From a virus, in IMG/VR virus record IMGVR_UViG_3300017989_000002: a stretch of 64,000 nucleotides of DNA; one strand, written 5' to 3'. Both the position numbers and the translations under genes were made by a program. Below are positions 36,085-58,973 of the stretch, in pieces. Below the pieces are notes generated by a model. That model was given only the letters and a program-made list of their open reading frames with translations, was not told the DNA's origin and did not search any database. Every line of letters starts with the position of its first letter. Within the stretch, counting starts at the first letter, position 1.

Positions 36085-36139
36085 CGACCCCGTCTCCCGT
36101 TCAGGGGGGCGGGGTCGTCCCGGCCGGCCCTTCTTCGCT
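36085..36139 (+). terminator. Hairpin plus CTTCTTCGCT end signal of the replication operon
   Basis: CGACCCCGTCTCCC-gttca-GGGGGGCGGGGTCG (the G-U pairs work only on the + strand), then 12 nt, then CTTCTTCGCT. Confidence 0.65.
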
Positions 36140-36439
36140 CAGACCCACCTGTCGCACCAAGATCTGGAGCAAGGCCTTCACGGCAGGGTCCTGCACCATT
36201 CCGAGGTGGTGCTTCACGGCGGCGATGTCCTGCTGGTGCTGCGTCTCGTGGGGAGCCGGAGCCGTGTCAGAAGACCGCGGACGGTAGCGGAGGAACGCGC
36301 CGTCCACGTAGCGCCACTCCCGGAGAGCGAGGTCTCGGTCACTCTCGACCACGAGGGAGCGCTTGTAGACGGAGTCGCGAGGCTTCGCGGTCAGCTTCTG
36401 CCGGATCAGGCCGTTGGAGTTGATGACGTAGTAGAACAC
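36101..36439 (-). CDS. Small tail-fibre-associated protein
   Basis: GTG start with GAGG; last gene of the tail operon. Confidence 0.6.
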   Translation of the reverse strand: MFYYVINSNGLIRQKLTAKPRDSVYKRSLVVESDRDLALREWRYVDGAFLRYRPRSSDTAPAPHETQHQQDIAAVKHHLGMVQDPAVKALLQILVRQVGLSEEGPAGTTPPP

Positions 36440-36446
36440 GGAGACC

Positions 36447-37742
36447 TCAGTAGAAGACCACGACGCGCGCTTCCTGGTTCTGCAGACTTGAGCCCACGGC
36501 GGCGGCCCCGCTGTAGTCCCCGGAGATGATCACGTCCTTGGCCGTCGGGTCGAAGAGGAGGAAGAAGTCTCCGCCGGCGTTCTGACCGGCGGCGAGCTCG
36601 GCGCTGTACCACTTCGTCTGGGCACCGTTGTAGGCAGAGCAGAGAGCACCCTTGAAGTTGTCGGCCACCTCGTCGGCCAAGGCGATCTCCGTGGGACCCG
36701 AGTTGTCGAGGATGACCGTGTAGTAGGCGGCGCGCAGGGGGCCATCACTGGCCACGTCGTCCGGTGTGAAGGTGGCGCCGTCGGAGGTGCCGAACCGGAC
36801 GCCGTTGACGGGGTCCAGGAGGATGGCGCGGTCCGTCGCGGTCTCCCGGACGACCACCGTGGCGCCCTCGTAGTGGATGTAGGTGTCGGCCCCCATCTGC
36901 AGAGCCTGCATGAGGAAGGCGCCTGCCGCAGAGACCCGGGCGTTGTCCGGCGTACCGGGGGTGCCCCACGTCTGGACGACCTCGCTGCCTGTCGCGTGGA
37001 CGACCTCCAGGGGCATCCCCGTGTCGACGACGATGCGCCGGTCGACCCCGAGGCCGAACTCGGTGTAGGACTCCTGCAGGTTGTTGCCCACGCCAGAAGG
37101 CCCCTGCGACCCGTTCAGGTTCATGAAGACGATGCGCTCGCCCGAGCTCGGGGTGTACAGCGGATCGAATGCGACCTCTCCTGGACTCCCTGCCGTCTCG
37201 GAGTAGTGCCGGCCCAACTCTTGGACGATGCCGCCGACCACGACGAGGAGCTGGCCCGTGCCCACCACATAGTCGAACCCGACGAGCACATCCTCGACTC
37301 CGGCAGAGACGACGACGTTGCGACTCACGCCCGGGCTGGAGGTACCCAGCCGGACCGTCTGCCCGTCGTCGATCACGGTGCCGTCGCGCCAATGCAGACG
37401 GTCGTCGGAGCCGCGGACGCAGAGCACGAAGATGTTGTCCTCGAGCAGGTCCGCGTCGTTCATGTTGGCGATGACGGGGGTCGCGGCGCCGCCGACCAGT
37501 CGGTTGATGTCGACGTAGACGCACTGATCGGACGAGACCGTGGCTACGCCTCCACCGTCGTTGACCGTCGCGATCCCGACACCAGGCAGGTAGAGCACCA
37601 GGTTGGAGGACCACGTGATGGTGCCTCCGGCCACCGAGGTGTCCCAGCCGATGAGGCCGCCGGCGGAGAGGGTGGCGTTGCGGTCCTGCCTCGTGTGGAA
37701 GCTGGCCTCGATGCCGTTGAGCTGGTCGCGGTTGATGCCCAT
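36447..37742 (-). CDS. Tail fibre/baseplate-associated protein, paralogous to 37742..40327
   Basis: Shares GG.I/LxW...TW...VYVD...DG...LG and Y.VG.G.L.V..G..Q modules with its neighbour. Confidence 0.7.
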   Translation of the reverse strand: MGINRDQLNGIEASFHTRQDRNATLSAGGLIGWDTSVAGGTITWSSNLVLYLPGVGIATVNDGGGVATVSSDQCVYVDINRLVGGAATPVIANMNDADLLEDNIFVLCVRGSDDRLHWRDGTVIDDGQTVRLGTSSPGVSRNVVVSAGVEDVLVGFDYVVGTGQLLVVVGGIVQELGRHYSETAGSPGEVAFDPLYTPSSGERIVFMNLNGSQGPSGVGNNLQESYTEFGLGVDRRIVVDTGMPLEVVHATGSEVVQTWGTPGTPDNARVSAAGAFLMQALQMGADTYIHYEGATVVVRETATDRAILLDPVNGVRFGTSDGATFTPDDVASDGPLRAAYYTVILDNSGPTEIALADEVADNFKGALCSAYNGAQTKWYSAELAAGQNAGGDFFLLFDPTAKDVIISGDYSGAAAVGSSLQNQEARVVVFY

Positions 37743-40327
37743 CAGGCGCTCCTGGCGGCGGCCGCAGCCGACGCGGTGGGCTCGTCGTAGCCGACCAGGT
37801 AGACGTCGGGGGACCCTGTGTACAAGGTGTCCGGTACGCTGATCTCGAAGGCCCCGTTACCGTCGAGGACAGCCTCGAACTCGAACTCGACGAAGTCCTC
37901 GTCGACGCGAGAACCGTCCTCGGTGCGCTGGGAGCCCATGACGGACGTGAAGCGCCGGTACCCCGGAGCCCCGGTGGCCCGCACGTACAGAGGCATCAAG
38001 TTCCCCCGGTCTGCCACGGGGTCGTTGGCTTCGATGCGCATCCGGAGTCGGACGACGGCTCCGGCCGTGAGAGGCAGGGATGGAGTGACGGGCTGCCAGG
38101 CGAACCCTGCGCTGGGCGTCCCGATGGCGGCCGAGAAGTTTGGCGAGACGTCCAGCTCCCGGCCCAGCGTGACCGTGCCTCTCTGCTTGGCGAATGGGTA
38201 GAGGTTCCCCGTCCCGTCGAACCAGGCGCTCGCCAGGAAGGCGTGCTGCGAGCTCGAGGGGTGGTGACCGTAGCCCACCGACCGGTCAGGAGCGTCGGCG
38301 GACCACAAGATCTCGGGCTCAGCCCCGTCGTGCGCGGCGTAGGCGTAGATCCAGTTGTTGACGACCGGAGGACCTCCGTAGTGCGGGTCTGCGGTGGAGC
38401 CCTCGAGCACGTTGTTGGTCGCGGTGGTCGCGTGCTGGGACGTGAGGCCTGCGCGGTTGAGGGAGCCTCCCGCCGCCCGGACCAGAGTGGAGCCGGGGCT
38501 CCAGACCACGTCGAAGCCCTGGAGCGCCTCCACGGCGTTCGCGGTCAGCGCCGCGTTCGTGCTCGACGGGTCGTGCAGCGCCTCCACCGAGTTCTCGATG
38601 TTCTCGGACAGGCCGACGATGTCGCGGAGACGCGCCGTGAGGTTGAAGAGCAGCTCGCCCGCAGTCGAGTCGTCCACCTCGAGGCCAGCGCCCGTCTTGA
38701 GGACGAGCGACCCTCCCTGAGCGCCCGCGCCACCTCCGTCCACCTCGAGGGAGACGACGTGTCCGCCCGAGACGGATGTGCGGATGCGGATGCGTCCGGA
38801 GTCGTACTCCACGACGATGCCGGTTCCGCCCTCCAGCTCCACGTGCCCGTCCAGGCGGTCGGCCGGGTCGCCGCCCATGACGCCGATGCTTTCGACCGGG
38901 CTCGGGCCGTCGCCTTGGACACCGATGAACGCCTCTACCCAGTCCCCATCTCCAGGCCAGGACCGCTCGGGGTCGTTGGCGTTGCCGTCGGTGGTGCCGT
39001 CGAGGGGGTCCGTGTCGCCGGACCACCGGGTCACCAGGCTCGTGTTCTCGTCGCCGTCGCGGTCTCCTGGGAGGATGTCGCGTACCCACAAGATCTGCGT
39101 ACCGGAGCCCGTGCCGTCGTCGTACTCGAGGTAGTCGTCGTCGACGGCGATGGTGCCCGTCAGGGAGCCGCCAGGCCACGCGCCGGACCACACGGCCGAG
39201 CTAGCCTTCTGCTTGACGCCGTTCCTGAACACCATCAGGGCGCCGGAGCCGACCGGGTAGGTGTTGCCCAGGTCCAGGAGCTGCTCTGCAGGGTTGGGTC
39301 CGTGATCGGCGTACCTCCACTGCAGGCCGGTGGCGGCGCCACCGAGGACGGCAGTGTCGCCGTCGCCCAGGGACTGGCCGTTCATCAGGTAGAGGCGGCT
39401 GTCCGTCGAGTGGTAGTAGGCGATGACGAGCTTGTCGCGGAGGCTGCCAACGGCAGCAAAGGCCGTCGCGTAGGCCACGACGGGTCGGAGGACCGTCGGA
39501 CCCGTTCCCACACCTCCAGTCCCGGGGTCTCGAGTGGAGAGGTCGACGTACAGGACCTCTCCAGGCTCCAGGTCCTCGTTCCCGGCCGCGATCACGTAGT
39601 CCGCGCTCTGGTCCGTGCCTGCAGCAGGCTCCGGCCCGGAGACCATGACGTGCAGGTCTGCGTCCCACGTCCACGTGCCTGTCGGAGCTCCAACACTCCA
39701 CTGCAGGGTGCCTCCTCCGATGAGCCGGAGGTTGTGGTTCTGGCCCTGCCGGCGCTGGACCTCCGTGAACTCCGACTGGAGGGCGTACTGGCTGTCGCGC
39801 CCGCGCTCCAGGGTGAGGCTGTGGTTCTGCTGGAGTCGGAGGCCGTCCGCGAAGATGACGGTGGAGCCGGAGCGGAAGGCCAAGAGGAAGATGTCGGCCC
39901 GGGTCTGCGCCCCCACCATGACGGTCCTGAGCGCCGTCATCGAGGCTGCGTAGGAGACCGTGACCGTCGCGCCGTCCGAGGTCTTGTCCAATACCAGGTA
40001 GGCCACGCCGCCGTCGTCAGGGAACGCCTGGCTGCCTCCTGCGACGACATTGGAGACGACCGCCGTCCCCATCTCCGCCCACCTCACCTGGAACTGGCCC
40101 GACCACGTGAGGGTGTTGCCTGCGTAGGACCACGTGGTGCCGCCCGTCAGGAACGAGTTGGCCGTGGCCTGCACGGCCCCGAAGAGCGCGTCGTCGTTGA
40201 CGGCGAGCCGCTCGAGCAGCCTGTTGATGCCCTCGCCGGCACCCAACGACCCGGACTTCAGCTCCTCGAGGAGCTGAACCCAGGTGTCTTCCGAGCCGAT
40301 CTCGGTCTTGAGCTTGAACGTGGTCAT
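37742..40327 (-). CDS. Tail fibre-like structural protein with internal domain duplication
   Basis: Beta-rich, Gly/Thr/Asp-rich; duplicated N-terminal module. Confidence 0.7.
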   Translation of the reverse strand: MTTFKLKTEIGSEDTWVQLLEELKSGSLGAGEGINRLLERLAVNDDALFGAVQATANSFLTGGTTWSYAGNTLTWSGQFQVRWAEMGTAVVSNVVAGGSQAFPDDGGVAYLVLDKTSDGATVTVSYAASMTALRTVMVGAQTRADIFLLAFRSGSTVIFADGLRLQQNHSLTLERGRDSQYALQSEFTEVQRRQGQNHNLRLIGGGTLQWSVGAPTGTWTWDADLHVMVSGPEPAAGTDQSADYVIAAGNEDLEPGEVLYVDLSTRDPGTGGVGTGPTVLRPVVAYATAFAAVGSLRDKLVIAYYHSTDSRLYLMNGQSLGDGDTAVLGGAATGLQWRYADHGPNPAEQLLDLGNTYPVGSGALMVFRNGVKQKASSAVWSGAWPGGSLTGTIAVDDDYLEYDDGTGSGTQILWVRDILPGDRDGDENTSLVTRWSGDTDPLDGTTDGNANDPERSWPGDGDWVEAFIGVQGDGPSPVESIGVMGGDPADRLDGHVELEGGTGIVVEYDSGRIRIRTSVSGGHVVSLEVDGGGAGAQGGSLVLKTGAGLEVDDSTAGELLFNLTARLRDIVGLSENIENSVEALHDPSSTNAALTANAVEALQGFDVVWSPGSTLVRAAGGSLNRAGLTSQHATTATNNVLEGSTADPHYGGPPVVNNWIYAYAAHDGAEPEILWSADAPDRSVGYGHHPSSSQHAFLASAWFDGTGNLYPFAKQRGTVTLGRELDVSPNFSAAIGTPSAGFAWQPVTPSLPLTAGAVVRLRMRIEANDPVADRGNLMPLYVRATGAPGYRRFTSVMGSQRTEDGSRVDEDFVEFEFEAVLDGNGAFEISVPDTLYTGSPDVYLVGYDEPTASAAAAARSA

Positions 40328-40347
40328 GGAGTCCTACAGCGAGACGC

Positions 40348-40800
40348 TCAGAGGGAGTAGACCTGGCCGGTGCTGGGGTTGCGGATGAACTTGCCGCCCT
40401 TGGCGCGCAGGGCCGCGGCGTGGCGCTGCAGGGCGGGGGGCGCGTCCGAGATGGGCTTGGCCTTGGCCTTCATGAGCTTGACGCGGACGTCGGCAGGCAG
40501 GGCGGCGAACTGCTGCGCGCGTCCGGCCGTGTGTGCGCGACGCGCGACGCTGGCCGTGAAGCGGGCCTCCTTGGGCGACAGCCGGTTCTGCTCGAGCTTG
40601 TAGCCTCCGACCGCGCCGGCGCCGGCGCCGACAGCCAGACCGCCGGCCAGGCCCACCTTGCCGCGGTGGCGAGAGGCGAAGGACTTGCCGCCCTTCCAGG
40701 CCGCACCGATCCGGTCCTTGACGCCGGCGAGCTTCTGCAGCTCATCGACCTGGGCTCGGGCCATGATGCGGCTGTACATGTCTTCACGGGTGGGGTTCAT
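40348..40800 (-). CDS. Basic Gly-zipper putative internal virion protein (DELQKLAG)
   Basis: GGAG RBS; AQVDELQKLAG then GLAGGLAVGAGAGAVGG. Confidence 0.7.
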   Translation of the reverse strand: MNPTREDMYSRIMARAQVDELQKLAGVKDRIGAAWKGGKSFASRHRGKVGLAGGLAVGAGAGAVGGYKLEQNRLSPKEARFTASVARRAHTAGRAQQFAALPADVRVKLMKAKAKPISDAPPALQRHAAALRAKGGKFIRNPSTGQVYSL

Positions 40801-40817
40801 GGGGGTCTCCCTGGAGG

Positions 40818-41420
40818 TCAGAGGCGAAGTGTGTAGCGGACCTGCAAGGCGAAGTCCGAGGTCTTGGTGAATGCACCGAAGGTCTTGCGAGCGAACACGT
40901 CCTTGTCCGGGCTTCGGTCAGACAGGATGACGAGCTCGCGGAAGGTCGTGTTCACCTCGGTCTGGTCGTAGACGAAGACGAAGGTGACGTAGGGGTTCGT
41001 GGGATCGAACTCGACCTCTGAGACCTGCTTCAGCGACGACGGAACAAGGGCGGCTCCCAGGCCAGTGTCGGCGGCGCTCTCAGTCGTGCCGTCCGTGCCG
41101 AGCTCGCACCACTGGATGACCACGTCGTTGTCGTCCGCCAGAGAGCCCGTGATGCCCGTGATGTCGGCGGGCACGAGCTTGCGCCGGATCATGTCTCGCC
41201 CGCCCGTGGGAGCGCTACCGCTGCCGTTCAGCAGAGACGTGACCACGTTGCGGCCGACGAAGGCGCGCTTGGCGACCTGCCCCTTCTTCGGGCCCGTGGC
41301 GTGGATGAGCCGGAACTCGACGTACGCGCGCGGCTTGAAGATGTCGACGAAGTCGCCGCCGACCTTCAGGAGCCCGCGCCACCACCTCACCATCGCGTTG
41401 TAGCGGTCTCGCAGGGTCAC
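40818..41420 (-). CDS. Baseplate/tail-collar attachment protein
   Basis: NVVT...ELGTDGT...DTGL...NTTFRELVI...FARKTF...KTSD, typical of tail-fibre N-terminal or collar-type domains. Confidence 0.65.
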   Translation of the reverse strand: MTLRDRYNAMVRWWRGLLKVGGDFVDIFKPRAYVEFRLIHATGPKKGQVAKRAFVGRNVVTSLLNGSGSAPTGGRDMIRRKLVPADITGITGSLADDNDVVIQWCELGTDGTTESAADTGLGAALVPSSLKQVSEVEFDPTNPYVTFVFVYDQTEVNTTFRELVILSDRSPDKDVFARKTFGAFTKTSDFALQVRYTLRL

Positions 41421-41602
41421 GGCTTCGGCTCCTGTACTGGAGATCGTACCTCCCCGCGGGGGGAGGAGTAGAGGGCAGGCCCTCGCTGGTCTCCCTTCAC
41501 GGGAATGAGACGAAGGTGGAGCGCCTCGGTTGAGGGGAGGTCGTCGACGAGTCCCTTCGTACCACGGAGGGATCGAATCAGCCTTCGGAGCTTGCGGATC
41601 AT
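41417..41602 (-). CDS. Small hypothetical protein
   Basis: Coupled by ATGA/GTGA overlaps on both sides. Confidence 0.5.
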   Translation of the reverse strand: MIRKLRRLIRSLRGTKGLVDDLPSTEALHLRLIPVKGDQRGPALYSSPRGEVRSPVQEPKP

Positions 41603-44600
41603 GGCTCTGGCTCCTCGACGGTGCTGCTCATGCTGGAGCCCGTGGCAGGGAAGAAGTCGGTGAAGTCCTGGCTAACCACGTCAGCCTCCTCTCTCCCGTC
41701 TGGGAGGTCCTGGGACATGGGGAACTGCGTCGTGTCACCCCGGTTGATGACCTTCGTGCCGGCGTTGGTCAACCCCGGGTAGTTCGCAGCGAGGGTGATG
41801 GTCAGGCCGTCTCCTGCATCGATGGCCAGGACCTCGACGGGCGGGTTGTCGTCCACGGGCGTCGTGCCCAAGGCAGGAACCGCCTGGATGTAGTCCCCGA
41901 CCTCGATGACGCCGCGCATGTCGTTGGTGCAGGGGACCGAGGCGGAGCCGTTCGTGAAGTCGAAGGTGCCATCGTACGCCTTGGCCGAGAGGTAGAGCAC
42001 GCACCCGTCGTACTCCTCCTCGATGGGCTGGATGAGGCTCACCTCGATCGTGTCCACGACCTCGTCGATCTGGTACCAGCGCCCGCGAGGGTCGCACAGG
42101 TACCTCTCCGTGACGGGGCCCACGGGACCGATGTCCGATACCGCATCGTCGAACTGCTGGATGAAGCTGTTGCCGAGGCCAAGCTCGTGGAAGTTGTCCG
42201 GCAGCAACGTCGTCCCGAACAGGCCGGCGCCGAGCGTGGCCACGAACTCCAGCTCCTCCTCGGGGCAGTTCTCGTCCTGCCAGTCGTAGTAGACGTTCAT
42301 GACTGCCAGGTCGATGAGCGAGAGGCAGTAGGTCCCAGGATCCCCCGTGAAGGTCTCGGCGAAGCGGAGGGAGTTGTCGTCCACGACGGTCGCGATCTGC
42401 CCACGTAGGAAGGCGTCGTTGACCGCCGCCCAGGGGTACCCGGTCCCGCTGAAGTCGAACGGGGTCTTCAGCGTGAGCGTGCTGCCCGAGACACCCGTCA
42501 CGAGACGCGTCTGACCACCGCACTGAACTCGCGCGCCGACCTGGACGTCGTCCATCGCGCCCGGCGTGGCGTCGACGAAGGAGAGGGAGCCGTCGACGAC
42601 CTCGCCCTCCGTCCCGGTGATGTACCGAGAAGCGGCCACGTACTTGCGCGACACCGCGCCTGGGCCGCCCACTTGGGACAAGAGGGCTCCGTCTACGCCC
42701 TCGACCAGAGGGAGCTGGGTGAAGCTGCCCGCCGGCTCCCCCCGCTCCTCGGAGACCCTGTAGTGGAAGCGGACGTGGAAGCCCTCGGCCCACACGCCCG
42801 TGGGGTCCCGGAGGGCGTCCGTGCCCAGCTGCACGGCCAGGTACCCGCCAGACGCCGGGGACGTGTTGGAGTCCGACGTCGTGCCTGCCTCAGGGCCCTC
42901 GTGGGAGTCGTAGCCGATGGCGTGTGTCTCGATGGCGGAGGCGGACGCTGCATCCACGTAGCCGTAGGCAGAGGCTCCGTCAGGCACGGCGAAGCTGGTC
43001 TTGTTGGCGGCGTTGTTCCAGACGTGCACCTTGGGAGAGGTCCCGAGCTCCACCCCAATCATGGAGTGCTTGCCCGCGCCGTTGGGAAGGCCGTTGGACT
43101 CCACGACGCCTATCCACGCATGGTAGCGGGTTGCGGGGTCGGGGCACGTCTCCACGACCTCGATGTACCACTCGATGCGGTTGTTGGAGCCCCAGAAGTC
43201 CGCCACAACGACGCCGTCGGAGTCCAAGATCTCGAGGATCCAGGTGTGCAACTGCTGGGTGTCGTCCGGGTACTTGCGGGTGAAGAACTTCGAGGCCGCC
43301 AGCCGCACGTAGTAGACGTCGTCGCCCTCATCCGCGATGTCGTCGCTCTGGCCAGAAAGGTCGGTGTCGAACTCGGTGATGGCGTCGGCCAGGTCCACGG
43401 TTCGCCAGTCCGACTCGGCAGACGGGTCGAGGTCCCACTTCCCGTCAAGGTCGGTGAGCCAGTCCCGGACCCCCGGGTTCTGGGGGTGGCGCTGGGTGCC
43501 CGCCGTGGTTGCCCAGGAAGGACCCTCCACCTGGTCGTAGCGCCAGTCCGTGACGTGCTGCTGGTAGTCGTAGCTGTCGTACCGAGGGATGGTGACGTCG
43601 CAGGGGAGGTCCCACAGCTCCAATTGGGCCACGAACTCCAGGGCATCGGAGATGTCGAGGTCATCGAAGTGGCGGCTCACCGCCAGGAAGTAGGCCTGCT
43701 TCCAGGTGGGCTTGATCCTCGAGAGGAACGATAGGGCGAAGGGCAGGGCTTCGAGGTCGGGGCTGTCTGCCTCTGCTGCGATCTCGAAGGAGTGGTACTT
43801 CTGGAGCTCGTGCACGTTCGCGTGGCGCTCGAACCAGAATGGGTCCGTGGTCCAGTCCACGACGTCGACGCCGTAGCAGAGGGGCTGGAACGTCGAGACG
43901 GCGTCGCCCACGGACAAGGGCGTGCCGATGGTCCGCGGGAAGGTGTAGTCGACGCCGGCGACGCGGATACGGGACAGCGCGCCCGTGTAGGTCAGCTCCA
44001 GCTCCTCCACGACGCCGTCCTGCCCGCTCACGGGAAGGCCCAGCAGCAGGTGAACTCCCGTGCGGATGGCGCCGCGCGCCGGCCCGCGGAAGTACGCGTA
44101 GTAGAGGCCTTGGAGCCGGAGCTTGTACGTCTCCGTGGAGTCCCCGTCGAGGCCGATGTTCCGTCCGTAGATGGAGGCGAGCAGGTGCTCGTCGTAGGCC
44201 ACGTGCTCGGCCCACACTCGGTCTGGAGGAAGCGTCTGGAACTCCAGGACCGTGCCGGTTCCGGGGTAGTGCAGGTGCACGTCCAGACCCCCCACCCAGG
44301 TCTGCGTCGCGTTCTTCACCTTGTCGACGAGGCTCGGAACCTCCCTGATGCGGTAGGGGGAGCTCGGGTCGAAGTAGGCCCACGCCGACGTCGAGCCTCT
44401 CATCTGCTGGTCCCACGCGGTGACGACGACGCCGAGCCCAGTCGTGTACTGCAGGGGGTACAGGTCGTCGACGAGGTCGCCTGACCGGACGTTCGAGGTC
44501 CCGAAGTACGCGAGACGATGGGCTGTGTCCCCCGTCCGTGCCTCTACGTCCAGGGTCACGCTGGCGACGAGGACCTCGCCACGAACGTCGAACTCGAGGG

Positions 44601-49205: not shown

Positions 49206-49427
49206 ATGAACGATAACCGCCCGAGGGGTACCGGCGCCCGCCTACTGGACGTCGGCACTGTACTGAAGCTGGTGGAAGGACGCCAGGGCTTCACCGAAGC
49301 GCGCACCTGTCCTTCCTGCGAGAGGCACCTGTCCCCCCACCCCACCGTGCGTCAGGGAGTGAAGTGGCGGTGCCCGTGGTGCGATGAGGAGACTCCCTCC
49401 GAGGGTCACTCCGAGACCGAGATGTAG
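49206..49427 (+). CDS. Small Zn-ribbon protein (opposite strand, inside the tail module)
   Basis: CPSC...WRCPWC; fills the intergenic gap and overlaps the end of the baseplate J gene by 22 nt. Confidence 0.5.
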   Translation: MNDNRPRGTGARLLDVGTVLKLVEGRQGFTEARTCPSCERHLSPHPTVRQGVKWRCPWCDEETPSEGHSETEM

Positions 49428-52006: not shown

Positions 52007-52662
52007 CAGAGCACCACGGGAACTTGGTAGGAGCCGCCGGAGTAGTCCTTGAGTCGGACCAGCGCGACGGCCTGATTGTCTTCGTAGAGGATGCCCTCGA
52101 AGGAGAAGGAGCGCAGCCTCTCGTTGGCCGGGATCTTCTGTCCGCGCTGCCTGGAGGTGAAGTACGCCTGCGTGGCGTCCACGGCCTGGGCGACCGCCGC
52201 CGCGGGGTCTGTGCCGTTGGAGATGCTGTTCGTGATCTCCTCACCGAGCCCGCCTCCGCTCGACCGGTCGAACTTGTTGGACCTCGGCCCAGACAGCATC
52301 ACCCGAACAACCTGCTGGATGAGCTTCTGGAGCCCGCTCTGTGCCCGGGGGCGGCGGGTGATGGCGTGGATGAGCCGGACCCGGTGCCTGCCCGTGGCGA
52401 ACGAGCCGTAGACCACGAAGACCATGTTCGTGAGCGGCGCATCGTCCAGCGTGGACGGGAGGCGCAGCAAGACCTCGTAGTCGTTGACGATGGTGAAGTC
52501 GTCGATCCCGAGGTCGTTGACGAGGACGCGCGTTGCTGCTCCGAGGCCTCCACCGCTGGCCTCGAGCAGCAACGTCCGGGGCTCGCCGGAGAAGGTCTCC
52601 ACCTCGGAAGCACCGGTGACCGTGAAGTCGTCCACCAGTTGCATGGTCTGCAAGTCCCTCAT
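52006..52662 (-). CDS. gp25/GPW-like baseplate wedge protein with Ig/TIG-like N-terminus
   Basis: GLQKLIQQVVRVMLSGP....GGGL...ERL; immediately upstream of baseplate J. Confidence 0.7.
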   Translation of the reverse strand: MRDLQTMQLVDDFTVTGASEVETFSGEPRTLLLEASGGGLGAATRVLVNDLGIDDFTIVNDYEVLLRLPSTLDDAPLTNMVFVVYGSFATGRHRVRLIHAITRRPRAQSGLQKLIQQVVRVMLSGPRSNKFDRSSGGGLGEEITNSISNGTDPAAAVAQAVDATQAYFTSRQRGQKIPANERLRSFSFEGILYEDNQAVALVRLKDYSGGSYQVPVVL

Positions 52663-55600
52663 CCCACCTCCGTGAACTCGTCAGGGTGGTCGATGATGTA
52701 CTGCAGAGCTGCCTTGGCGCCCTCGATGTCTCTGTTGATGCGGTCCACCTTCGACCCGGTCTGTGCCAGCCAAGGCAGCGTGTCGTCTTGCTCCGACACC
52801 GCGTCCGTGACCGGCGTGCCCACCAACTCGTACACCGCCCGGTTCCTCTCGTCTTCCGGACTCACCTCGGACACCCTCTTGGCGTGCTCGTCTGCGCCCA
52901 GCCGGAGAGCGGCCTGGCCCATGCCCGCATGCGCGCCCCCCAGGGCCCCCAGCGCGGCCGCTCCGTCGCCGCGGGCCAGGTTCCCGTCTCCAGGACGCCC
53001 CCGGCCGGCGCTGTCGACGGAGCCGCCTGCCGAGCGGAGGGCGGAGGCTGCGTTGCCCAAGTACGAGGCTGCCTCTCTCGACAGCGAAGACAGGCCCGGG
53101 AGGTTGCCGCTGCGGAGGGTGTCGGAGGCCCGGTCGAGCCCGGACTCCACCAAGAGAGCAAGAGCCGCGCGTACGGACTCCGACGGCGCTACCTCGTACT
53201 GGTCCAGGAGAGCCGCGATCTCCCGAAGCCGGGAGTCGATGACGCTCGTGCGGTACAGGGCCTCGCTGATGGAGGTCCGCTCCATCGCCCAGGATGCCAC
53301 GACCAGAGCGACGTCCACCTCGGGGGTGATGGAGACGCGGTCGCTGTCCACCTGCGTGATGTAGTGGCGGCTGCGCGCGCCGCCGGCGTGCGTGAGGGTG
53401 ATGAGCTCGCCGTACCGCGCACCAGCGAGCTCGACGTCGACGTCGAGCTCCAGTAGGGGCGTGAGGTCGTCGTCGTCGCCGTCGTTGCGCACAACGACAG
53501 GACCGCCAGAGGCCACGGAGTCCCCTTCCTCTCCTCCGTCCTGGAAGGCGCGCGCCAAGAAGGCGGAGAGCTGGGTGAGGTCGCTGCCCGGGACAGGCAG
53601 GGCCTCAAGCTGGTGGTCGAAGAGAAGCCAGCGACCGTACTCGTTGCTACCGCCCCGGGTCACAACGGCCAGGGCGCCTGCCACGCCGGCGGGGATGACT
53701 TCCGTGAGGCTCACCTCGGTGTAGCCACCTGTGGGGTCCTCGGACACGACTGCGCGGGTTGCCGGAACAGTCCAGAGCGTCAGGAGGTCCCCCTCCTCGG
53801 CCCCTACCGCAGCCCCGGGAAGCCGCAGTTCCGTCGTGCGGCCCTCCACCTCGGCCCACACCTCGTAGGGCACCCGTGACCGCCCCACGTTGAACTTGGT
53901 CCGGACCGTCAAGGTGTCGTTCACGCCGTCGCCGTCCAGGTCGATGACCTCAAGGACAGGGACCTTGTAGGTCGGCGTGGAGTTGATCTTGAGCAGCGTC
54001 CCCACGAGCTCCTGCCCGAAGCCTCCGACGGCGTCGTACTCGAGAGCACCGTCTTCGTCGGTCAGGCGGTCCGACACGTCGGAGCTTGTCGGCTCCACGA
54101 TGAAGTAGTCGAGGTCGATGCCGACGGCGGGCGGGACCGGGCGGGACAGGCGCAGCCTGCCGTCCACGATCTGGTCGATGGGGTACCGGACGCCCTCGTA
54201 GAGGAGCTCGTGCCGGGGGTAGACCGGGTCGTACAGGGCGTAGGGGATGCCGGACACTCCCTGGGGGATGCGCCCGGATACGCGCACCTCGCTCGCCCCG
54301 TAGATCTCGAGGACCTGCACCCTCTGCTCGTTGGCCTCCCCCGGCCAGAGCGCCAAGGTCGTGCCGAGGGGTAGGCCATCGAACGGGCTGTTGGCGAAGT
54401 CGGAGAACCTGTCCGTCCAGTCCCCGGCGCGCACGCTCCACTCCAGCAGAGGCGCGTCATCGTAGGGGACGCCTGCACGCAGGTCGAGGGCAGTGCTGCG
54501 GCCCGGCGTGGGCCTCGACCATGGCACGTCCGACCCCGCCACGCGGAGGGCCACGGGGTAGCCGTTGACCACCGGAGGGAGGAGGGACAGGTCGATGCCG
54601 TCGTCCTGGTCGAAGGACTGGGACACTGCATCGTCCCGGTAGGTGAGCCACTCGTGTCCCGAGACGAAGTCCGTCTGGACCCAGGATGAGGTGAGGCGCA
54701 GCCTGGTCTGGCTCAAGACCTCGTCCACCGCGTGAGGGGAGCCGTCGAGGTACACGACGTCACCCGCGGTGATGCCATCCGACAAGAACGCGGCGTCCGT
54801 GTCTACGACCTCGTCGTCGGGCAGAAGGACTCGCCACCCCATCCCTGTCTCGTGCAGCAGCGTAGAGTCCAGCCGGACTGCATCGTCCGACAGAACCTCC
54901 ACCACCGAGTAGAGCCCGTCGTTGGATGCTGTCCCGTAGATCTCGACGACAGACCCCACCTGCACATTCGCCGTGAGGAAGCCCGCGCCGGGCTGCGAGA
55001 GAACCCTGTCGTTCGACGGCCACCGCACGATGCGCCAGTTGGGGTACACGTCCACCGTGAACGGGGGGTCCACGACAAGGTAGTCCTCCGAGAGGGCGTA
55101 CTGGATGGTGAGGACGGTCGACGCCCCGTCCCCAAGCTCCAGGTCCCATCCCGGAGCAACGCCATCGGTGATGAAGGACGCTCCGAGGTAGGTGAAGTAG
55201 TAGCCGGGGATGATCAGAGCGCCGTCCGGCGGTCCCGACAAGAACCACGGGTCACCCTCCCCTGCGGCGCCGGCAAGCAGCACACGCGTCGCGCCGCTGC
55301 CCGAGGCCTCGACGGTGCGGGGGTAGAAGCCCTTCGTGCCTGACGAGATGACCGACGAGGCCGTCTGCCCATCCTCGTACTTGACCCAGAAGTCGACGTT
55401 GGGGTCCTCGAAGTACGTCCCGGCGGGCTCCCTCGTCACGAACCACTTCGTGTCGGCGATGTTCTTCGAGATCTCGGGCACCACGCGCAGGTGGTCGACC
55501 GTGGTCGCAGGGTCCGAGACGACGCGGTGCGTGACGCCTGTGGCGTAGAGGAACAGGCTGTCGCCCACGCTCAGCCCGAGCACAGACCAGTCCGGCGTGG

Positions 55601-56558
55601 ACGTGTCCTGGAACTTGGGGGTGGTCAGGTCGCCGTCGAGGTCGTCTTGAGCAAAGCCCTGCGTACCCAAGACGAGCGGGTCCACGTAGACCCGACCGTT
55701 GAATCCTGCCAGGACTGCCGCAGGAGGCGCTACGGCGGCAAGGCCCGTCGCCGCCTTGAAGGCCCGCTCCGTGTAGGCGTCGTCGCGAGGACCAGTCACG
55801 ACCTCGCCCAGAGGTGTCTGCGCGGTCCCGACGGCGCCCATCGCGGCGTAGGCCGCTGCGAGCTCGGTCGCGATGCTCTCCATCCGGGCTGCTTGATCTT
55901 CGTCGTTGAGGAGAGGGACCTCCTGCTCGAGGGCCCGCAGCAAGGTCGCACACGCAGTGCTCACGCGCGCCGAGATGAGCGTCCGGAGGTCGAGGGCAGC
56001 TCCCTCATCCACGCTGGCCCTGACCGATGCCTTCCCGCCCTCCAGGCGGGCGAGGCCGCGCTCCAGGGAGGGGAGAACTCCTCGCAGGAGTGCGCGAGCC
56101 CCCGTGCGAGATCCGCCACTGCGCAGGTTCGGAGCCACAGCGTCTTGCAGGTACTCCTTCACCTGCTGCCTGAAGGCCGACACCTGCTCGTCGGCGTAGG
56201 CCCCCGTCACCAGGTGGGCGTCCAGGCGGCCGAGCGACGCCCTGGCCGAGGACAGGCCCTCGGTGGTCACGATGCGCGTGAGCTCCGGGTTCTCCAGCGC
56301 TCGGATGCCGCCGTCCGACAGCATCGTCTCCGTGAGCGCCAGGACAGACTCGATGTCGGTCCTGAAGCGCGTCGCAGCGAGGTAGGCGAGGTAGAACACG
56401 GCGCGGTCATCGGCGTGCATGGCCGCCAGGACCGTGTTCGACAGCTGGCTGTAGTAGCGGTCGGGCGCCTCGGATGCGTCCGGTCTGCGCGCGAAGTTCG
56501 TGGTCGTCGGGATGACCTTCCCGACTGCATCCACAACATCGTCGCGCTCAATCGCCAA
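52659..56558 (-). CDS. Large tail structural protein with about 10 beta-module repeats
   Basis: TTG start with AGGAGG; helical ends flank repeats of the F-x3-G-V-x2-G-D type. Confidence 0.75.
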   Translation of the reverse strand: MAIERDDVVDAVGKVIPTTTNFARRPDASEAPDRYYSQLSNTVLAAMHADDRAVFYLAYLAATRFRTDIESVLALTETMLSDGGIRALENPELTRIVTTEGLSSARASLGRLDAHLVTGAYADEQVSAFRQQVKEYLQDAVAPNLRSGGSRTGARALLRGVLPSLERGLARLEGGKASVRASVDEGAALDLRTLISARVSTACATLLRALEQEVPLLNDEDQAARMESIATELAAAYAAMGAVGTAQTPLGEVVTGPRDDAYTERAFKAATGLAAVAPPAAVLAGFNGRVYVDPLVLGTQGFAQDDLDGDLTTPKFQDTSTPDWSVLGLSVGDSLFLYATGVTHRVVSDPATTVDHLRVVPEISKNIADTKWFVTREPAGTYFEDPNVDFWVKYEDGQTASSVISSGTKGFYPRTVEASGSGATRVLLAGAAGEGDPWFLSGPPDGALIIPGYYFTYLGASFITDGVAPGWDLELGDGASTVLTIQYALSEDYLVVDPPFTVDVYPNWRIVRWPSNDRVLSQPGAGFLTANVQVGSVVEIYGTASNDGLYSVVEVLSDDAVRLDSTLLHETGMGWRVLLPDDEVVDTDAAFLSDGITAGDVVYLDGSPHAVDEVLSQTRLRLTSSWVQTDFVSGHEWLTYRDDAVSQSFDQDDGIDLSLLPPVVNGYPVALRVAGSDVPWSRPTPGRSTALDLRAGVPYDDAPLLEWSVRAGDWTDRFSDFANSPFDGLPLGTTLALWPGEANEQRVQVLEIYGASEVRVSGRIPQGVSGIPYALYDPVYPRHELLYEGVRYPIDQIVDGRLRLSRPVPPAVGIDLDYFIVEPTSSDVSDRLTDEDGALEYDAVGGFGQELVGTLLKINSTPTYKVPVLEVIDLDGDGVNDTLTVRTKFNVGRSRVPYEVWAEVEGRTTELRLPGAAVGAEEGDLLTLWTVPATRAVVSEDPTGGYTEVSLTEVIPAGVAGALAVVTRGGSNEYGRWLLFDHQLEALPVPGSDLTQLSAFLARAFQDGGEEGDSVASGGPVVVRNDGDDDDLTPLLELDVDVELAGARYGELITLTHAGGARSRHYITQVDSDRVSITPEVDVALVVASWAMERTSISEALYRTSVIDSRLREIAALLDQYEVAPSESVRAALALLVESGLDRASDTLRSGNLPGLSSLSREAASYLGNAASALRSAGGSVDSAGRGRPGDGNLARGDGAAALGALGGAHAGMGQAALRLGADEHAKRVSEVSPEDERNRAVYELVGTPVTDAVSEQDDTLPWLAQTGSKVDRINRDIEGAKAALQYIIDHPDEFTEVG

Positions 56559-56575
56559 GGGCCCCTCCTGCCGGA

Positions 56576-56588
56576 TCTACCCTATCGC
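56576..56588 (-). promoter_or_regulatory. Candidate -10 element GCGATAGGGTAGA
   Basis: Matches 15220-15232. Confidence 0.55.
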
Positions 56589-56594
56589 ACGCCG

Positions 56595-56623
56595 TGAAAC
56601 CGTGCCCTGCGGCGTCGCATAAG
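56595..56623 (+). promoter_or_regulatory. Candidate sigma28-like promoter TGAAA-N13-CGTCGCATAAG
   Basis: Same spacing as 58165-58193; -10 box identical to 18925-18935. Confidence 0.65.
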
Positions 56624-56630
56624 GGCTTGG

Positions 56631-56770
56631 TGGAGAGGGCCCCTCGGCGTCCCCCACCGAGCGGCAGGAGGTTGGTCTCTCTGCCCTCCGAGGTTCTCCA
56701 TTGACCGCGGCCCTGGAGGCCCGAGCGCGCAGCTCGGGCCTCCAGGTGTCGCACCTCGTGCTTCTTCGCT
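56631..56770 (+). ncRNA. Candidate structured small RNA
   Basis: Bounded by the plus-strand promoter motif and the hairpin+CTTCTTCGCT signal. TGGAGAG/TTCTCCA closing stem and inner GGCAG/CTGCC hairpin; no convincing ORF. Confidence 0.45.
56712..56770 (+). terminator. Perfect 15-bp hairpin plus CTTCTTCGCT
   Basis: CCTGGAGGCCCGAGC-gcgca-GCTCGGGCCTCCAGG, 14 nt, CTTCTTCGCT. Confidence 0.7.
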
Positions 56771-57407
56771 ACGAGACGACGACGCCGAAGGCCGCGGGAA
56801 GCGTGGGGTCCGGCAGGCTGATGTGCTCCAGGACCTCCCCCTCGCTGGTCTGGTTCGTCCCGACGAAGCCCTGGTCGATGGCCGTGACCTCGAGGGACGC
56901 CGCACCCACGCTCTCGGCACACAGGCCGGAGGTCCCGTGCAGAGCCACCGCCTCGTCGTCAGAGGCCACGGTCGCGTACTGTGGAGGGATCTCCGCCTCC
57001 GTCCCATCCGACATCTCGGCCACCAGGTCGAGAACGGCGACCTCGCCGACGTCCAGGAGGAGGGGGTCGTCCCCGTCGTACCGCACCACCTTGACGTAGG
57101 GGAACAGCCAGTCGATGAGGACGGCCTCGTCCTGGGCCGGGACCGTACGACGGAGCGTGATGTCCGAGCGGAACGGGTGGTCGATCTGCACCGTCGCGCC
57201 TTGGATGAGCTGGAAGGCCACGAGGCCGCTCCCGTCGCTCGTCGCCTCGACTCCCTGTCCCGTGACCCAGTTCATGGCGTCCGTCGTCATCGGAACCTCG
57301 AGGTTCCGGATGCGGAGAGGGATCCCCACGCGCGGGCGGCCGCTCACGTCCAGCAGGTAGCCGGCGATGGTGCAGAGGGCGGGAGGTACGGGGTCGGGAA
57401 GGGGCAT
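56769..57407 (-). CDS. Structural protein, beta-sandwich plus Ig-like (Big) domain; paralog of 59946..60245
   Basis: CTIAGYLLD...SDGSGLVAFQLIQG...VPAQD; C-terminal ASDDEAVA...AESVGAASLEV. Confidence 0.7.
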   Translation of the reverse strand: MPLPDPVPPALCTIAGYLLDVSGRPRVGIPLRIRNLEVPMTTDAMNWVTGQGVEATSDGSGLVAFQLIQGATVQIDHPFRSDITLRRTVPAQDEAVLIDWLFPYVKVVRYDGDDPLLLDVGEVAVLDLVAEMSDGTEAEIPPQYATVASDDEAVALHGTSGLCAESVGAASLEVTAIDQGFVGTNQTSEGEVLEHISLPDPTLPAAFGVVVS

Positions 57408-58129
57408 CAGGTCTTGACCTTGGCGAGAGCCCCCGAGGGCGAGGAAGACACGAGCTTTGGCGGCTTCGGGGCCTTGATCTTCGTGGTCCCGAAGCTGCCC
57501 ACGGACGCCTTGGGTAGAGTGGGCGGCTTCATCTTGACCTTGAAGGAGGGCGTCTTCGGCTTCGCCAGGGGCTTGAGCAGCTTCAGGGCCATCTTCGCGG
57601 CACCCGCCTGCTTGGACATGCCCTGCCGGCGGTAGAACTGGCCTCTGGCGGTGTTGTCCGGGTGAGGGCCCAGCACCCGACGGGTCTGACGGTCCACCAT
57701 CGCGCTCTGGCCGCCGAAGACGTGCCTCGCGCGGGACGCCCGGGCGGCCTCGATGGCGTCCACGAGGTGCTGCGACGGGACGTGGGTCACGCCGGCAGCG
57801 ACCTCGGGCTTGCCCAGCCCGAACATGCGAGACAGGACCTTCGCGTCAGCAAGGTCCGCTCGGCGAGCCATGACCTCTCGGCCCCGGCCTCCCCCCACCG
57901 CGGCAGTGCCGCCGAGCGCCGCCCCCAGCGCAGCGCCCCGGAGCATGCGCCCGATGCGCTCACGAACTTCGGGGCGCGTGAGGTTCCGGCCCTGGACCTG
58001 CCCTGTGTGGTCGCGCCAGAACTGCTCCTCCGAGGGCTCGTAGGTGGCGGCGCCCGTAGCGGCCCCGGCGGCCGCCCCTGGGGCAGCACCGAGAAGGAAC
58101 TCGAGGGCTCGGGCAGCCGCTGGCTTCAT
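57407..58129 (-). CDS. Basic Gly-zipper putative internal virion protein (MSKQAG)
   Basis: GGAGG RBS; GAAPGAAAGAATG and GAALGAALGG; Lys/Pro-rich tail after MSKQA. Confidence 0.65.
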   Translation of the reverse strand: MKPAAARALEFLLGAAPGAAAGAATGAATYEPSEEQFWRDHTGQVQGRNLTRPEVRERIGRMLRGAALGAALGGTAAVGGGRGREVMARRADLADAKVLSRMFGLGKPEVAAGVTHVPSQHLVDAIEAARASRARHVFGGQSAMVDRQTRRVLGPHPDNTARGQFYRRQGMSKQAGAAKMALKLLKPLAKPKTPSFKVKMKPPTLPKASVGSFGTTKIKAPKPPKLVSSSPSGALAKVKT

Positions 58130-58164
58130 GGGCAGACCTCCGTCGGGATACTAGCGTGGGAGGA

Positions 58165-58193
58165 TGAAATCCGCGAGACGAGCGGCGCACAAG
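58165..58193 (+). promoter_or_regulatory. Candidate sigma28-like promoter TGAAA-N13-CGGCGCACAAG
   Basis: Same spacing as 56595-56623; the downstream AGCTTG also resembles GGCTTG. Confidence 0.55.
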
Positions 58194-58216
58194 AGCTTGA
58201 GACCCAAGGAGGTTCC

Positions 58217-58915
58217 ATGCGTACCCTGACCATCATCATCCCGGCCGTCCTGCTCACCGGGTGCCTCGCCTCTCGAGGTACCGTCACCGTCGAGGACACC
58301 GGCCCCGAGGCCGCGGACACCTCGGAGGACATCGTCGACACCGGAGGGGCGGACACAGGCCTGCCTGAGGACAGCGACGAGGTCGAGCCGTGGATCATCA
58401 CGGGCGACCTGACCATCGAGAACAGCCGCGACCTCGAAGGCCTGGAGGGGCTCGCCGCAATCAACGGAGACCTGACCGTCCGCAACGTGGACTCCCTCCC
58501 CACGTTGGCAGATCTCCGTCAGGTCCGTGGCATGGTCGCGTTCGAGTTCACGCGCCTGCGGGACCTCGACGACCTGTCCAGCCTCGAGGACGTCGAAGGA
58601 CTGCGCTTCCGCTCGAACGATGACCTGGAGGACATCAGCGGCCTCGACGGCCTGCTGTCCCTCGGCCGCGTCGAGATGACGGACAACGACTCGCTCGAGG
58701 CGTTCTCCGCGGCAGTGCCGGGCCACCTGGACGTCCTCTTGGTGGTCGACAACGATGCTCTACGAGACCTCGGGACGCTGGAGGGCCTCGTCTCCGCCAC
58801 CGACATCCTGGTGACGGACAACGTCGGCCTCTGCCAGACCTACGCGTTCACCGCGTTGGCGGGACTCGCCGACGGCTTCTACGTCATCGAGGACAACGAG
58901 GGCGCCTGCCCTTGA
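58217..58915 (+). CDS. Lipoprotein with receptor L-domain/LRR-like repeats
   Basis: MRTLTIIIPAVLLTGC lipobox, DTG-rich linker, ITGDLTIEN / LEGLAAINGDLTV / N..L..L..L repeats; AAGGAGG RBS. Confidence 0.85.
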   Translation: MRTLTIIIPAVLLTGCLASRGTVTVEDTGPEAADTSEDIVDTGGADTGLPEDSDEVEPWIITGDLTIENSRDLEGLEGLAAINGDLTVRNVDSLPTLADLRQVRGMVAFEFTRLRDLDDLSSLEDVEGLRFRSNDDLEDISGLDGLLSLGRVEMTDNDSLEAFSAAVPGHLDVLLVVDNDALRDLGTLEGLVSATDILVTDNVGLCQTYAFTALAGLADGFYVIEDNEGACP

Positions 58916-58921
58916 GGACGA

Positions 58922-58973
58922 GCGCCGGCAGCAACGTGCTGCCGGCGCCTGAGCCTACGTCGCCTTCTTCGCT
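58922..58973 (+). terminator. Perfect 12-bp hairpin plus CTTCTTCGCT
   Basis: GCGCCGGCAGCA-acg-TGCTGCCGGCGC, 15 nt, CTTCTTCGCT. Confidence 0.7.

What the first reader, a model, noticed from the sequence alone, without database searches (positions are those of the whole stretch)
36085..58973. Non-canonical terminator: strong hairpin, 12-15 nt spacer, then CTTCTTCGCT
All three clearly bounded plus-strand units end the same way. Hairpin 36085-36117 is followed by the motif at 36130, hairpin 56712-56746 by the motif at 56761, and hairpin 58922-58948 by the motif at 58964. The stems are unrelated in sequence and lack an adjacent U-tract. The first needs G-U pairs that form only on the + strand, and its motif lies inside an antisense CDS. 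Inference: a sequence-dependent stop signal for the phage RNAP, loosely like T7 class II terminators, or an RNA processing site. Caveat: the 10-mer also occurs at 62562-62571 in an antisense Ala-Ala-Lys-Lys codon run where I saw no comparable hairpin.
Basis: seen in the sequence. Interest (0 to 1): 0.8.

Follow-up and report, generated by a model that had tools for sequence, protein, structure and literature searches.

The report
Hairpin-plus-box end signal of phage units
An uncultured 175-kb high-GC phage with its own single-chain RNA polymerase ends most plus-strand gene units that start with one promoter-like box in the same way, with a strong RNA hairpin, about 13 bases, then a fixed pyrimidine box; relatives keep the box, so it is probably a new two-part stop or processing signal, though no RNA data show this yet.

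Summary
At 36130, 56761 and 58964 the 10-mer lies 12-15 nt after very stable hairpins that have no U-tract.

I walked about 45 kb further along the same 174,625-bp contig and found three more composites (L021 and L023). That makes six, all on the + strand. Each closes a + strand unit that opens with the GTCGCATAAG-type box.

Two related phages (53-62% protein identity) keep the box at all three homologous junctions, while stem sequences and spacers are completely replaced. G-U pairs make five of nine hairpins clearly more stable as + strand RNA. Box position follows the hairpin, not the stop codon of the facing minus gene (offsets from -36 to +1 nt). An equally strong hairpin without a box (26888-26916) sits inside an operon and must be read through.

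Two exact copies (62562, 24439) are ordinary Ala-Lys-Lys coding. 268 other 10-mers occur five or more times, so the raw count is weak evidence. The position of the copies is the real evidence.

Best reading: a two-part, sequence-dependent 3'-end signal matched to a phage promoter class. Termination itself, the polymerase involved and the exact 3' end are not shown. This scan had already noted the promoter box and these cassettes on the same genome.

The parts
36085..36117 (+). Hairpin of composite W1, a 14-bp stem that needs G-U pairs on the + strand
   Evidence: Folds at -30.1 kcal/mol on + and -20.9 on -. It lies 15 nt after the stop of + gene 34831-36069.
36129..36139 (+). Box of W1 (CCTTCTTCGCT), 12 nt after the hairpin. 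It overlaps minus ORF 36101-36439, where it codes S-E-E-G.
   Evidence: The relative L013 has a hairpin, 13 nt, then the same box with one change.
56712..56746 (+). Hairpin of composite W2, a 15-bp perfect stem that a G-U-containing helix extends to 56707-56752
   Evidence: -44.8 on +, -39.4 on -. It closes the ORF-less unit that starts behind the promoter-like box at 56616.
56761..56770 (+). Box of W2, 14 nt after the hairpin. Its last two bases belong to the TAG stop of minus gene 56769-57407.
   Evidence: Relatives L016 and L002 keep the box core directly after the homologous stop codon.
58922..58948 (+). Hairpin of composite W3, a 12-bp perfect stem
   Evidence: -25.4 on both strands. It lies 6 nt after the stop of lipoprotein-like + gene 58218-58915.
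58963..58973 (+). Box of W3, 15 nt after the hairpin. It overlaps the TAG stop of minus gene 58972-59949.
   Evidence: Relative L002 has the box core with one change between the stop codon and a different hairpin.
56597..56630 (+). Promoter-like box (TGAAAC, 16 nt, CGCATAAG, then GGCTTGG) that opens the unit closed by W2
   Evidence: The block is conserved in L016.
58163..58200 (+). Promoter-like box (TGAAAT, 16 nt, CGCACAAG, then AGCTTG) that opens the lipoprotein unit closed by W3
   Evidence: It is nearly identical in L002.
18928..18935 (+). CGCATAAG box at the head of the + replication block that ends at W1. A second copy is at 25166-25173.
26888..26916 (+). Natural control: a 12-bp hairpin (-28 kcal/mol) with no box, between + genes inside the replication block
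   Evidence: The next gene starts about 15 nt later with no promoter box, so polymerase must pass this hairpin.
62562..62571 (+). Exact 10-mer that is not a composite. It is antisense to Ala-Ala-Lys-Lys codons of minus gene 61788-63386.
   Evidence: The hairpin 62579-62603 lies on the wrong side.
24439..24448 (-). Exact 10-mer on the other strand. The + sense strand reads Ala-Lys-Lys codons in ORF 23057-24529, with no hairpin nearby.

Best explanation
The element is a two-part 3'-end signal for + strand transcription units that start at the phage-specific GTCGCATAAG-type promoter box. The unit's RNA first forms a very stable GC-rich hairpin a few bases after the last stop codon. About 13 nt further on, the polymerase meets a fixed pyrimidine box (core CCTTCTTCG).

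My inference is that the hairpin alone does not stop this polymerase, and that the box is the sequence-specific part that halts or releases the elongation complex. The box could be read by the phage's own beta-beta' polymerase or sigma, or by a phage factor bound to the box as DNA or nascent RNA. Transcription would therefore end between the hairpin and the facing minus-strand gene, which keeps + units from running antisense into the late genes.

Shown: the composite exists, its spacing and orientation are fixed, it is linked to the promoter class, it is conserved in relatives, and the hairpins are biased toward the + strand.

Inferred: that it terminates transcription, who reads the box, and where the 3' end lies.
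For: 1. There are six composites in about 109 kb of one contig, all on the + strand, with spacers of 12-15 nt: three in the window, two in L021 and one in L023 with a single base change.
2. The association is statistical. The five exact copies beside hairpins rank 1, 2, 3, 5 and 6 of 265 core hits by upstream fold energy. They also account for most of the strongest hairpins in 99 kb.
3. Every composite closes a + unit that opens with the promoter-like box. Small + cassettes without that box (L023 10849-11145 and 12738-12989) have no composite.
4. Relatives at 53-62% protein identity keep the box at all three homologous junctions, although stems, loops and spacers are replaced.
5. G-U pairs make the + strand fold more stable by 9.2, 5.4, 6.7, 9.6 and 3.0 kcal/mol in five hairpins. 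The reverse bias is at most 3.8.
6. The box keeps its distance to the hairpin, whereas its offset to the minus gene's stop codon runs from 36 nt inside the CDS to 1 nt after it.
7. Hairpin 26888-26916, equally strong but without a box, lies inside an operon and must be read through.
8. A more distant relative with no opposite-strand cassettes has neither hairpin nor box after the homologous gene.
Against: - There are no RNA 3' ends and no RNA runs, so termination is an assumption.
- Every composite sits at a convergent junction, so the same data fit an element that serves the minus-strand units or both directions.
- The box always reads as sense for the facing minus genes, and in four of six cases it abuts or overlaps their stop codon.
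- A 12-15 nt gap puts the hairpin too far from a 3' end inside the box for the canonical hairpin-invasion mechanism of multi-subunit polymerases (established knowledge), so an unknown mechanism or factor is needed.
- Spacing is looser in relatives, at 8-13 nt.
- Two promoter-bearing + units end without any hairpin or box.
- Which polymerase uses the promoter box is unknown.
Confidence: 0.45

Rival explanations
1. The hairpins are bidirectional terminators or insulators at convergent junctions, and the box belongs to the minus-strand late mRNAs. In this reading it is a purine-rich, Shine-Dalgarno-like 3'-UTR element (sense reading AGCGAAGAAGG) placed between the stop codon and the hairpin, for example a protein or ribosome binding site that aids termination or stabilises the message.
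For: The box is sense-oriented for the neighbouring minus gene at all six sites. It overlaps the TAG stop in the same register at three sites (56769, 58972, L023 19450) and follows the stop by 1-3 nt in S5 and in relatives. Each composite also marks the end of a minus-strand unit.
Against: The offset to the stop codon is not fixed: it ranges from 36 and 12 nt inside the CDS to 1 nt after it. The distance to the hairpin is fixed at 12-15 nt. Hairpin G-U pairs favour the + strand. Convergent junctions whose + partner has no composite also have no box after the minus gene. The distant relative L022 has none after the homologous gene.
Confidence: 0.2
2. The box is an RNA processing or decay-entry site. 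In this reading + transcripts run past the hairpin, are cut at or near the single-stranded pyrimidine box, and are trimmed back to the hairpin, which protects the mature 3' end.
For: The box is predicted to be unpaired in most folds. U-tract-less GC hairpins are known as exonuclease blocks (established knowledge). The box-less hairpin inside the operon shows that hairpins alone do not end transcription here.
Against: A 9-11 nt invariant box is more specific than the known recognition of endoribonucleases such as RNase E, which is short and degenerate (own knowledge). The box does not consistently fit the purine-at-minus-2 rule that I tested by eye. This reading does not explain why the box is tied to one promoter class.
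Confidence: 0.15
3. The box is a DNA site for a sequence-specific phage protein that blocks elongation in one orientation, as a roadblock of the stoperator type. The hairpin then only helps release the stalled complex or protects the RNA end.
For: The site is asymmetric, 10-11 bp long, and always in one orientation relative to transcription. It lies at gene boundaries and is conserved in relatives with small coordinated changes: two sites in the L002/L013 phage both end in GAT where the window phage has GCT.
Against: No binding protein has been identified. Known stoperators are not paired with hairpins at a fixed distance (own knowledge). Only six sites were seen in 109 kb.
Confidence: 0.12
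4. The pattern is chance or a codon-usage by-product. GAA/AAG-rich sense strings are common in this genome and happen to fall next to hairpins.
For: 268 other 10-mers occur 5 or more times. The 9-nt core occurs about 10 times in coding sense. Two exact copies are plain Ala-Lys-Lys coding. A distant 133-kb relative shows no enrichment.
Against: Six of the strongest gene-end hairpins carry the box within a 4-nt spacing range and in one orientation. By my estimate the chance expectation per hairpin is about 3 in 10,000. The box survives in non-coding positions in relatives whose flanking bases are fully replaced.
Confidence: 0.02

Closest known systems
Canonical intrinsic (Rho-independent) terminators of bacteria and phages
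   Same: A GC-rich hairpin sits a few bases after the last stop codon, at the ends of units and at convergent junctions.
   Different: There is no U-tract next to the stem on either strand. Instead a fixed, only half-U box lies 12-15 nt away, too far for the usual hairpin-invasion geometry.
T7 RNA polymerase class II terminators (CJ, PTH, VSV)
   Same: A short, strictly conserved sequence acts as the stop determinant rather than secondary structure (seven conserved bases; bioRxiv 10.64898/2026.02.12.705533).
   Different: The box sequence is different. A strong hairpin is always present here. This phage encodes a beta-beta' multi-subunit-type enzyme, not a T7-like single-subunit one.
Conserved terminator motifs of giant phages with their own multi-subunit polymerases (phiKZ, 201phi2-1)
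   Same: Phage-wide sequence motifs are shared by many mapped terminators in phages that encode their own polymerase (PMC11512511).
   Different: In those phages the motifs form or lengthen the stem-loop. Here the stems are unrelated in sequence, and the conserved part is a separate downstream single-stranded box. There the 3' ends were mapped; here they were not.
Stoperators of mycobacteriophage L5 and cluster A phages
   Same: Short asymmetric sites recur at gene boundaries in one orientation relative to transcription and stop elongation (own knowledge, not checked in a paper here).
   Different: Stoperators are repressor sites, number in the dozens, and are not coupled to hairpins. No binding protein is known here.
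Histone pre-mRNA 3' signal (stem-loop plus downstream element)
   Same: The layout is the same: a stem-loop, a spacer of about a dozen bases, then a short conserved box (own knowledge).
   Different: It is a eukaryotic cleavage system guided by U7 snRNA. The only candidate guide RNA I tested (the unit at 56630-56750) pairs with the box, but that segment is not conserved in L016.

Membership tests
Canonical intrinsic terminator | Stable GC-rich stem-loop shortly after the gene | tested here: met
   Stems are 12-20 bp, -25 to -46 kcal/mol, and lie 6-15 nt after + stop codons.
Canonical intrinsic terminator | Run of U directly 3' of the stem | tested here: not met
   The bases after each stem are C/G-rich on both strands. 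The first U-containing stretch is the box, 12-15 nt away.
Canonical intrinsic terminator | RNA 3' ends 7-9 nt after the stem | not testable with these tools
   No RNA holder was listed for this DNA.
T7 class II terminator | The strictly conserved seven-base T7 sequence | tested here: not met
   The box core CTTCTTCG is a different sequence. The family definition is; the T7 heptamer itself is from my own knowledge.
T7 class II terminator | Acts without a hairpin | tested here: not met
   All six functional-looking copies follow a strong hairpin. Copies without that arrangement (62562, 24439, 60538) lie in coding sequence.
T7 class II terminator | Read by a T7-like single-subunit polymerase | tested here: not met
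   The polymerase found in the window is a 2067-aa fused beta-beta' protein. No T7-like polymerase was seen in the parts annotated.
phiKZ-type conserved terminator motif | The shared motif forms the terminator stem-loop | tested here: not met
   Stem sequences are unrelated between sites and between relatives. Only the downstream box is shared.
Stoperator-type roadblock site | Asymmetric site in one orientation relative to transcription, at gene boundaries | tested here: met
   Six of six composites are on the + strand, at junctions.
Stoperator-type roadblock site | Bound by a phage repressor that blocks elongation | not testable with these tools
   No candidate protein was identified.
nut / rrn antiterminator (boxA plus boxB hairpin) | boxA consensus and a sequence-specific boxB loop, located at the start of units | tested here: not met
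   The box differs from boxA (own knowledge of the consensus). Hairpin loops and stems are unrelated to one another. The elements lie at unit ends, not in leaders.

The most novel reading that the evidence does not exclude
The phage carries a self-contained, orthogonal transcription grammar for its single-chain beta-beta' polymerase. It has a dedicated promoter box (GTCGCATAAG type) and a dedicated two-part terminator in which a sequence box about 13 nt beyond a hairpin, not a U-tract, triggers release. That would be a termination mode not described for any multi-subunit-type RNA polymerase.
Probability: 0.3. Interest if true: 0.8.

Novelty: new variant of a known kind. Interest (0 to 1): 0.6.

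Why it matters
How phage-encoded multi-subunit-type polymerases stop is largely unknown, and nothing is known for single-chain beta-beta' enzymes. This case pairs a compact, sequence-defined stop signal with a promoter class. It also offers a natural box-less control hairpin and natural variants in relatives. Together these form a directly testable system: clone hairpin, spacer and box variants between reporters, or transcribe them in vitro.

If the box is the determinant, it would add a new termination principle. It would also supply short orthogonal terminator parts for high-GC hosts. If it is instead a processing or roadblock site, it still defines the unit boundaries of an otherwise unannotatable 175-kb phage.

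Tried and rejected
Searches that found nothing:
- No RNA holder was listed for this DNA in public runs; only four DNA holders from sediment or seawater.
- Near-identical DNA in the phage collection: none.
- The own contig in IMG/VR: none.
- Two metagenome scans, one by protein alignment A1 and one by the conserved promoter 20-mer: nothing found.
- IMG/VR scan with alignment A6: nothing.
- No whole genome is held for this window.
- Rfam: no family, neither in the whole window at gathering scores nor at 56500-59100 at E up to 1.
- The N-terminal fragment of the 1299-aa protein found nothing in the word-index search. The exhaustive search did find relatives.
- The distant 133-kb relative L001 (32% identical polymerase) has three exact 10-mers, all coding, with no hairpins and no enrichment over the reversed control. 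It is too distant to be informative.

Ideas considered and dropped:
- Read-through of the TAG stop, or a +1 frameshift into the S-E-E-G frame, at 56769 and 58972. The codons after the stop are rare ones with low GC3, and the P-site codons cannot re-pair.
- A minus-strand promoter. The box matches the CGCATAAGG box at 7 of 9 positions, but at W1 and S5 it would only drive antisense RNA into large + blocks, and there is no upstream -35-like box.
- An integron attC-like or cassette-boundary repeat. There is no inverse copy on the left side, and a 17-kb replication block ends the same way.
- A guide-RNA model. The unit at 56630-56750 has an 11-bp match to the box, but that segment is absent in L016.
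- A Rho loading site. Only about 25 nt are C-rich, and the sequence beyond is G-rich.
- The consensus elemental pause. The final TTC-G fits Y-1/G+1, but G-10 is present in only three of seven sites.
Full report
**What the window is.** It is 67% GC and belongs to a 174,625-bp metagenomic contig, ENA ERZ27256770 k141_711587. The contig comes from an uncultured phage found in sediment and seawater DNA runs. The window encodes:
- a 2067-aa fused beta-beta' RNA polymerase (8999-15202, minus strand);
- a family A DNA polymerase, RecA, a primase, a helicase and a UDG-like protein;
- a long minus-strand block of proteins with no Pfam family.

There is no close relative in the phage collection. The nearest polymerases are 28-32% identical: Vibrio phages D181, D148 and D69, and one IMG/VR contig.

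**Checking the observation.** The exact 10-mer occurs five times: 36130, 56761, 58964 and 62562 on +, and 24439 on -. The dinucleotide-shuffle expectation of 0.12 overstates its rarity, because 268 other 10-mers occur five or more times in this codon-biased sequence. The 9-nt core is also common in sense coding as x-Lys-Lys. The count alone is therefore weak evidence.

The three hairpins are real and very stable:

| Hairpin | Stem | Fold energy (kcal/mol) |
|---|---|---|
| 36085-36117 | 14 bp | -30.1 on +, -20.9 on - |
| 56712-56746 | 15 bp, extendable to 20 | -35.5 |
| 58922-58948 | 12 bp | -25.4 |

The box follows after 12, 14 and 15 nt, and no U-tract follows on either strand. At 36130 the box lies in minus ORF 36101-36439, where it codes L-S-E-E-G, and the stop codon is in the hairpin loop. 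At 56761 and 58964 the box overlaps the TAG stop of minus genes 56769-57407 and 58972-59949. Copies 62562 and 24439 are Ala-Lys-Lys coding. 62562 has a hairpin, but on the wrong side and inside a CDS.

**More of the same genome.** Using exact-protein look-ups I walked about 45 kb beyond the window end (L019, L020, L021, L023). Three further composites appeared.
- L021, hairpin about 12580-12609: the box with C at its last position follows 13 nt later, 1 nt before the stop of the facing minus gene.
- L021, hairpin about 21319-21371: the exact box follows after 14 nt. It lies behind a monocistronic 116-aa gene and codes S-E-E-G four codons before the stop of the facing gene.
- L023, hairpin about 19399-19428: a one-mismatch box follows after 12-13 nt and overlaps a TAG stop in the same register as at 56769 and 58972.

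All six composites are on the + strand. Among 265 core hits with at most one mismatch on both strands of 99 kb, the five exact hairpin-linked copies rank 1, 2, 3, 5 and 6 by upstream fold energy. Their values are -35 to -46 kcal/mol, and the 1% tail of random positions is -32.6. They also make up most of the strongest hairpins in that stretch.

**Link to a promoter class.** Earlier notes of this scan pointed to a CGCATAAG box. I find it almost only on the + strand, usually as GTCGCATAAG followed by RRCYTGG, and sometimes with TGAAA 16 nt upstream.
- Every composite closes a + unit that opens with this box. These units are the replication block (18928 and 25166, ending at 36130), an ORF-less unit (56616 to 56761), a lipoprotein-like gene (58186 to 58964), a nucleotide-metabolism block, the 116-aa gene, and a 5-kb block in L023.
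- Two promoter-bearing + units end instead in overlapping convergent genes, with no hairpin or box.
- Two small + cassettes without the promoter box have no composite.
- Hairpin 26888-26916 (-28 kcal/mol) has no box. It sits between two + genes with no promoter after it, so it must be read through.

**Relatives.** Two related phages were recovered from other metagenomes.
- L002 and L013 come from one sample and show 53-61% protein identity.
- L016 comes from another sample; its large protein is 62% identical.

Gene order is the same, including the opposite-strand lipoprotein cassette. At all three homologous junctions the box core is kept.
- L013 has a different 12-bp hairpin, 13 nt, then the box with one change.
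- L016 has the stop codon, one base, the box, 9-10 nt, then a different 20-bp hairpin.
- L002 has the box with one internal change next to yet another hairpin. The contig end of L002 breaks inside the third box.

The alignments show that in these intergenic regions only islands are conserved: the box, the promoter box and a -10-like element. Stems, loops and spacers are replaced.

A more distant relative (34% identity, L022) has no opposite-strand cassettes in the homologous region. It has no hairpin and no box after the homologous gene. A 133-kb contig with a 32% identical polymerase shows no association.

**Which strand?** Every composite is at a convergent junction, so position alone cannot decide. 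Three observations favour the + strand.
1. G-U pairs make the + fold more stable by 9.2, 5.4, 6.7, 9.6 and 3.0 kcal/mol in five hairpins. The opposite bias is at most 3.8.
2. The box keeps a 12-15 nt distance to the hairpin in this genome. Its offset to the minus stop codon ranges from 36 nt inside the CDS to 1 nt after it.
3. The composite goes with the + promoter class, not with minus gene ends in general.

Against this, the box is always sense for the minus gene and often abuts its stop. I read that as genome compaction: the minus gene runs up to, or into, the edge of the element.

**Mechanism.** My best reading (0.45) is a two-part, sequence-dependent stop signal for units driven by the phage-specific promoter. 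The hairpin folds in the + RNA, and the box about 13 nt later halts or releases the complex.

The canonical hairpin-invasion mechanism cannot apply with this spacing. Either the polymerase or its sigma reads the box, or a factor does so on DNA or RNA.

The rival readings are:
- a minus-strand 3'-UTR element with a bidirectional hairpin (0.2);
- an RNA processing site (0.15);
- a DNA roadblock site (0.12);
- chance (0.02).

None can be settled without RNA ends or biochemistry.

**Comparison with known systems.**
- It is not a canonical intrinsic terminator, because the U-tract test fails.
- It is not a T7 class II terminator: the sequence differs, a hairpin is always present, and the polymerase is of a different type.
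- It is unlike the conserved terminator motifs of phiKZ-like phages, where the shared motif forms the stem itself.

It is best described as a new variant of phage-specific terminator-like signals. No Rfam family matches.

Noticed in passing
window 18928, 25166, 56616, 58186; beyond the window L021 20905 and L023 14435, 14710, 20272: A promoter-like box, GTCGCATAAG followed by RRCYTGG and sometimes with TGAAA 16 nt upstream, occurs almost only on the + strand at the head of + units. It is nearly unchanged in relatives L002 and L016, although proteins are only 53-62% identical.
   Followed up: partly
window 56626-56711: The ORF-less unit between the promoter box and hairpin W2 keeps a short block (AGGTTCTCC) and its promoter in L016, but the middle part is about 25 nt shorter there. 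It is a candidate small RNA antisense to the leader of the 1299-aa gene.
   Followed up: partly
window 56570-56590 and 58140-58160 (minus strand): The -10-like elements GATAGGGTAG (before gene 52659-56558) and CGCTAGTATC (before gene 57407-58129) are conserved in L016 and L002. The minus late genes therefore seem to use a second, host-like promoter type.
   Followed up: no
window 36101-36439 (-) and L023 10412-10693 (-): Two unrelated small minus-strand proteins both carry S-E-E-G near their C-terminus, because the box is read in the same frame. The homologue in L013 ends I-E-E-G directly before its stop.
   Followed up: partly
window 62498-62605: Inside CDS 61788-63386 an exact box copy is flanked by an imperfect hairpin 34 nt upstream and a perfect 11-bp hairpin 7 nt downstream. 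I could not tell whether this is more than coincidence.
   Followed up: no
window 1-2804: By my sequence overlap (window 59434 = start of reversed L019, record 76833), window position 2805 corresponds to position 1 of the ENA contig. The window's first 2.8 kb therefore lie before that record's start. The genome is probably circularly permuted, or the window comes from another assembly of the same phage.
   Followed up: no
L019 834-880 and 2080-2096; L021 5207-5226: Three convergent gene pairs overlap by 17-47 nt with no hairpin at all, unlike the composite junctions. A strong box-less hairpin (L021 5038-5070) lies about 140 nt before one of them, inside a doubtful 90-aa gene call.
   Followed up: partly
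window 8999-15202: The nearest relatives of the fused polymerase in the phage collection are unannotated ORFs of 187-kb Vibrio phages D181, D148 and D69, at 28% identity over 99% of its length. In two of these the region is interrupted by a homing endonuclease gene.
   Followed up: no
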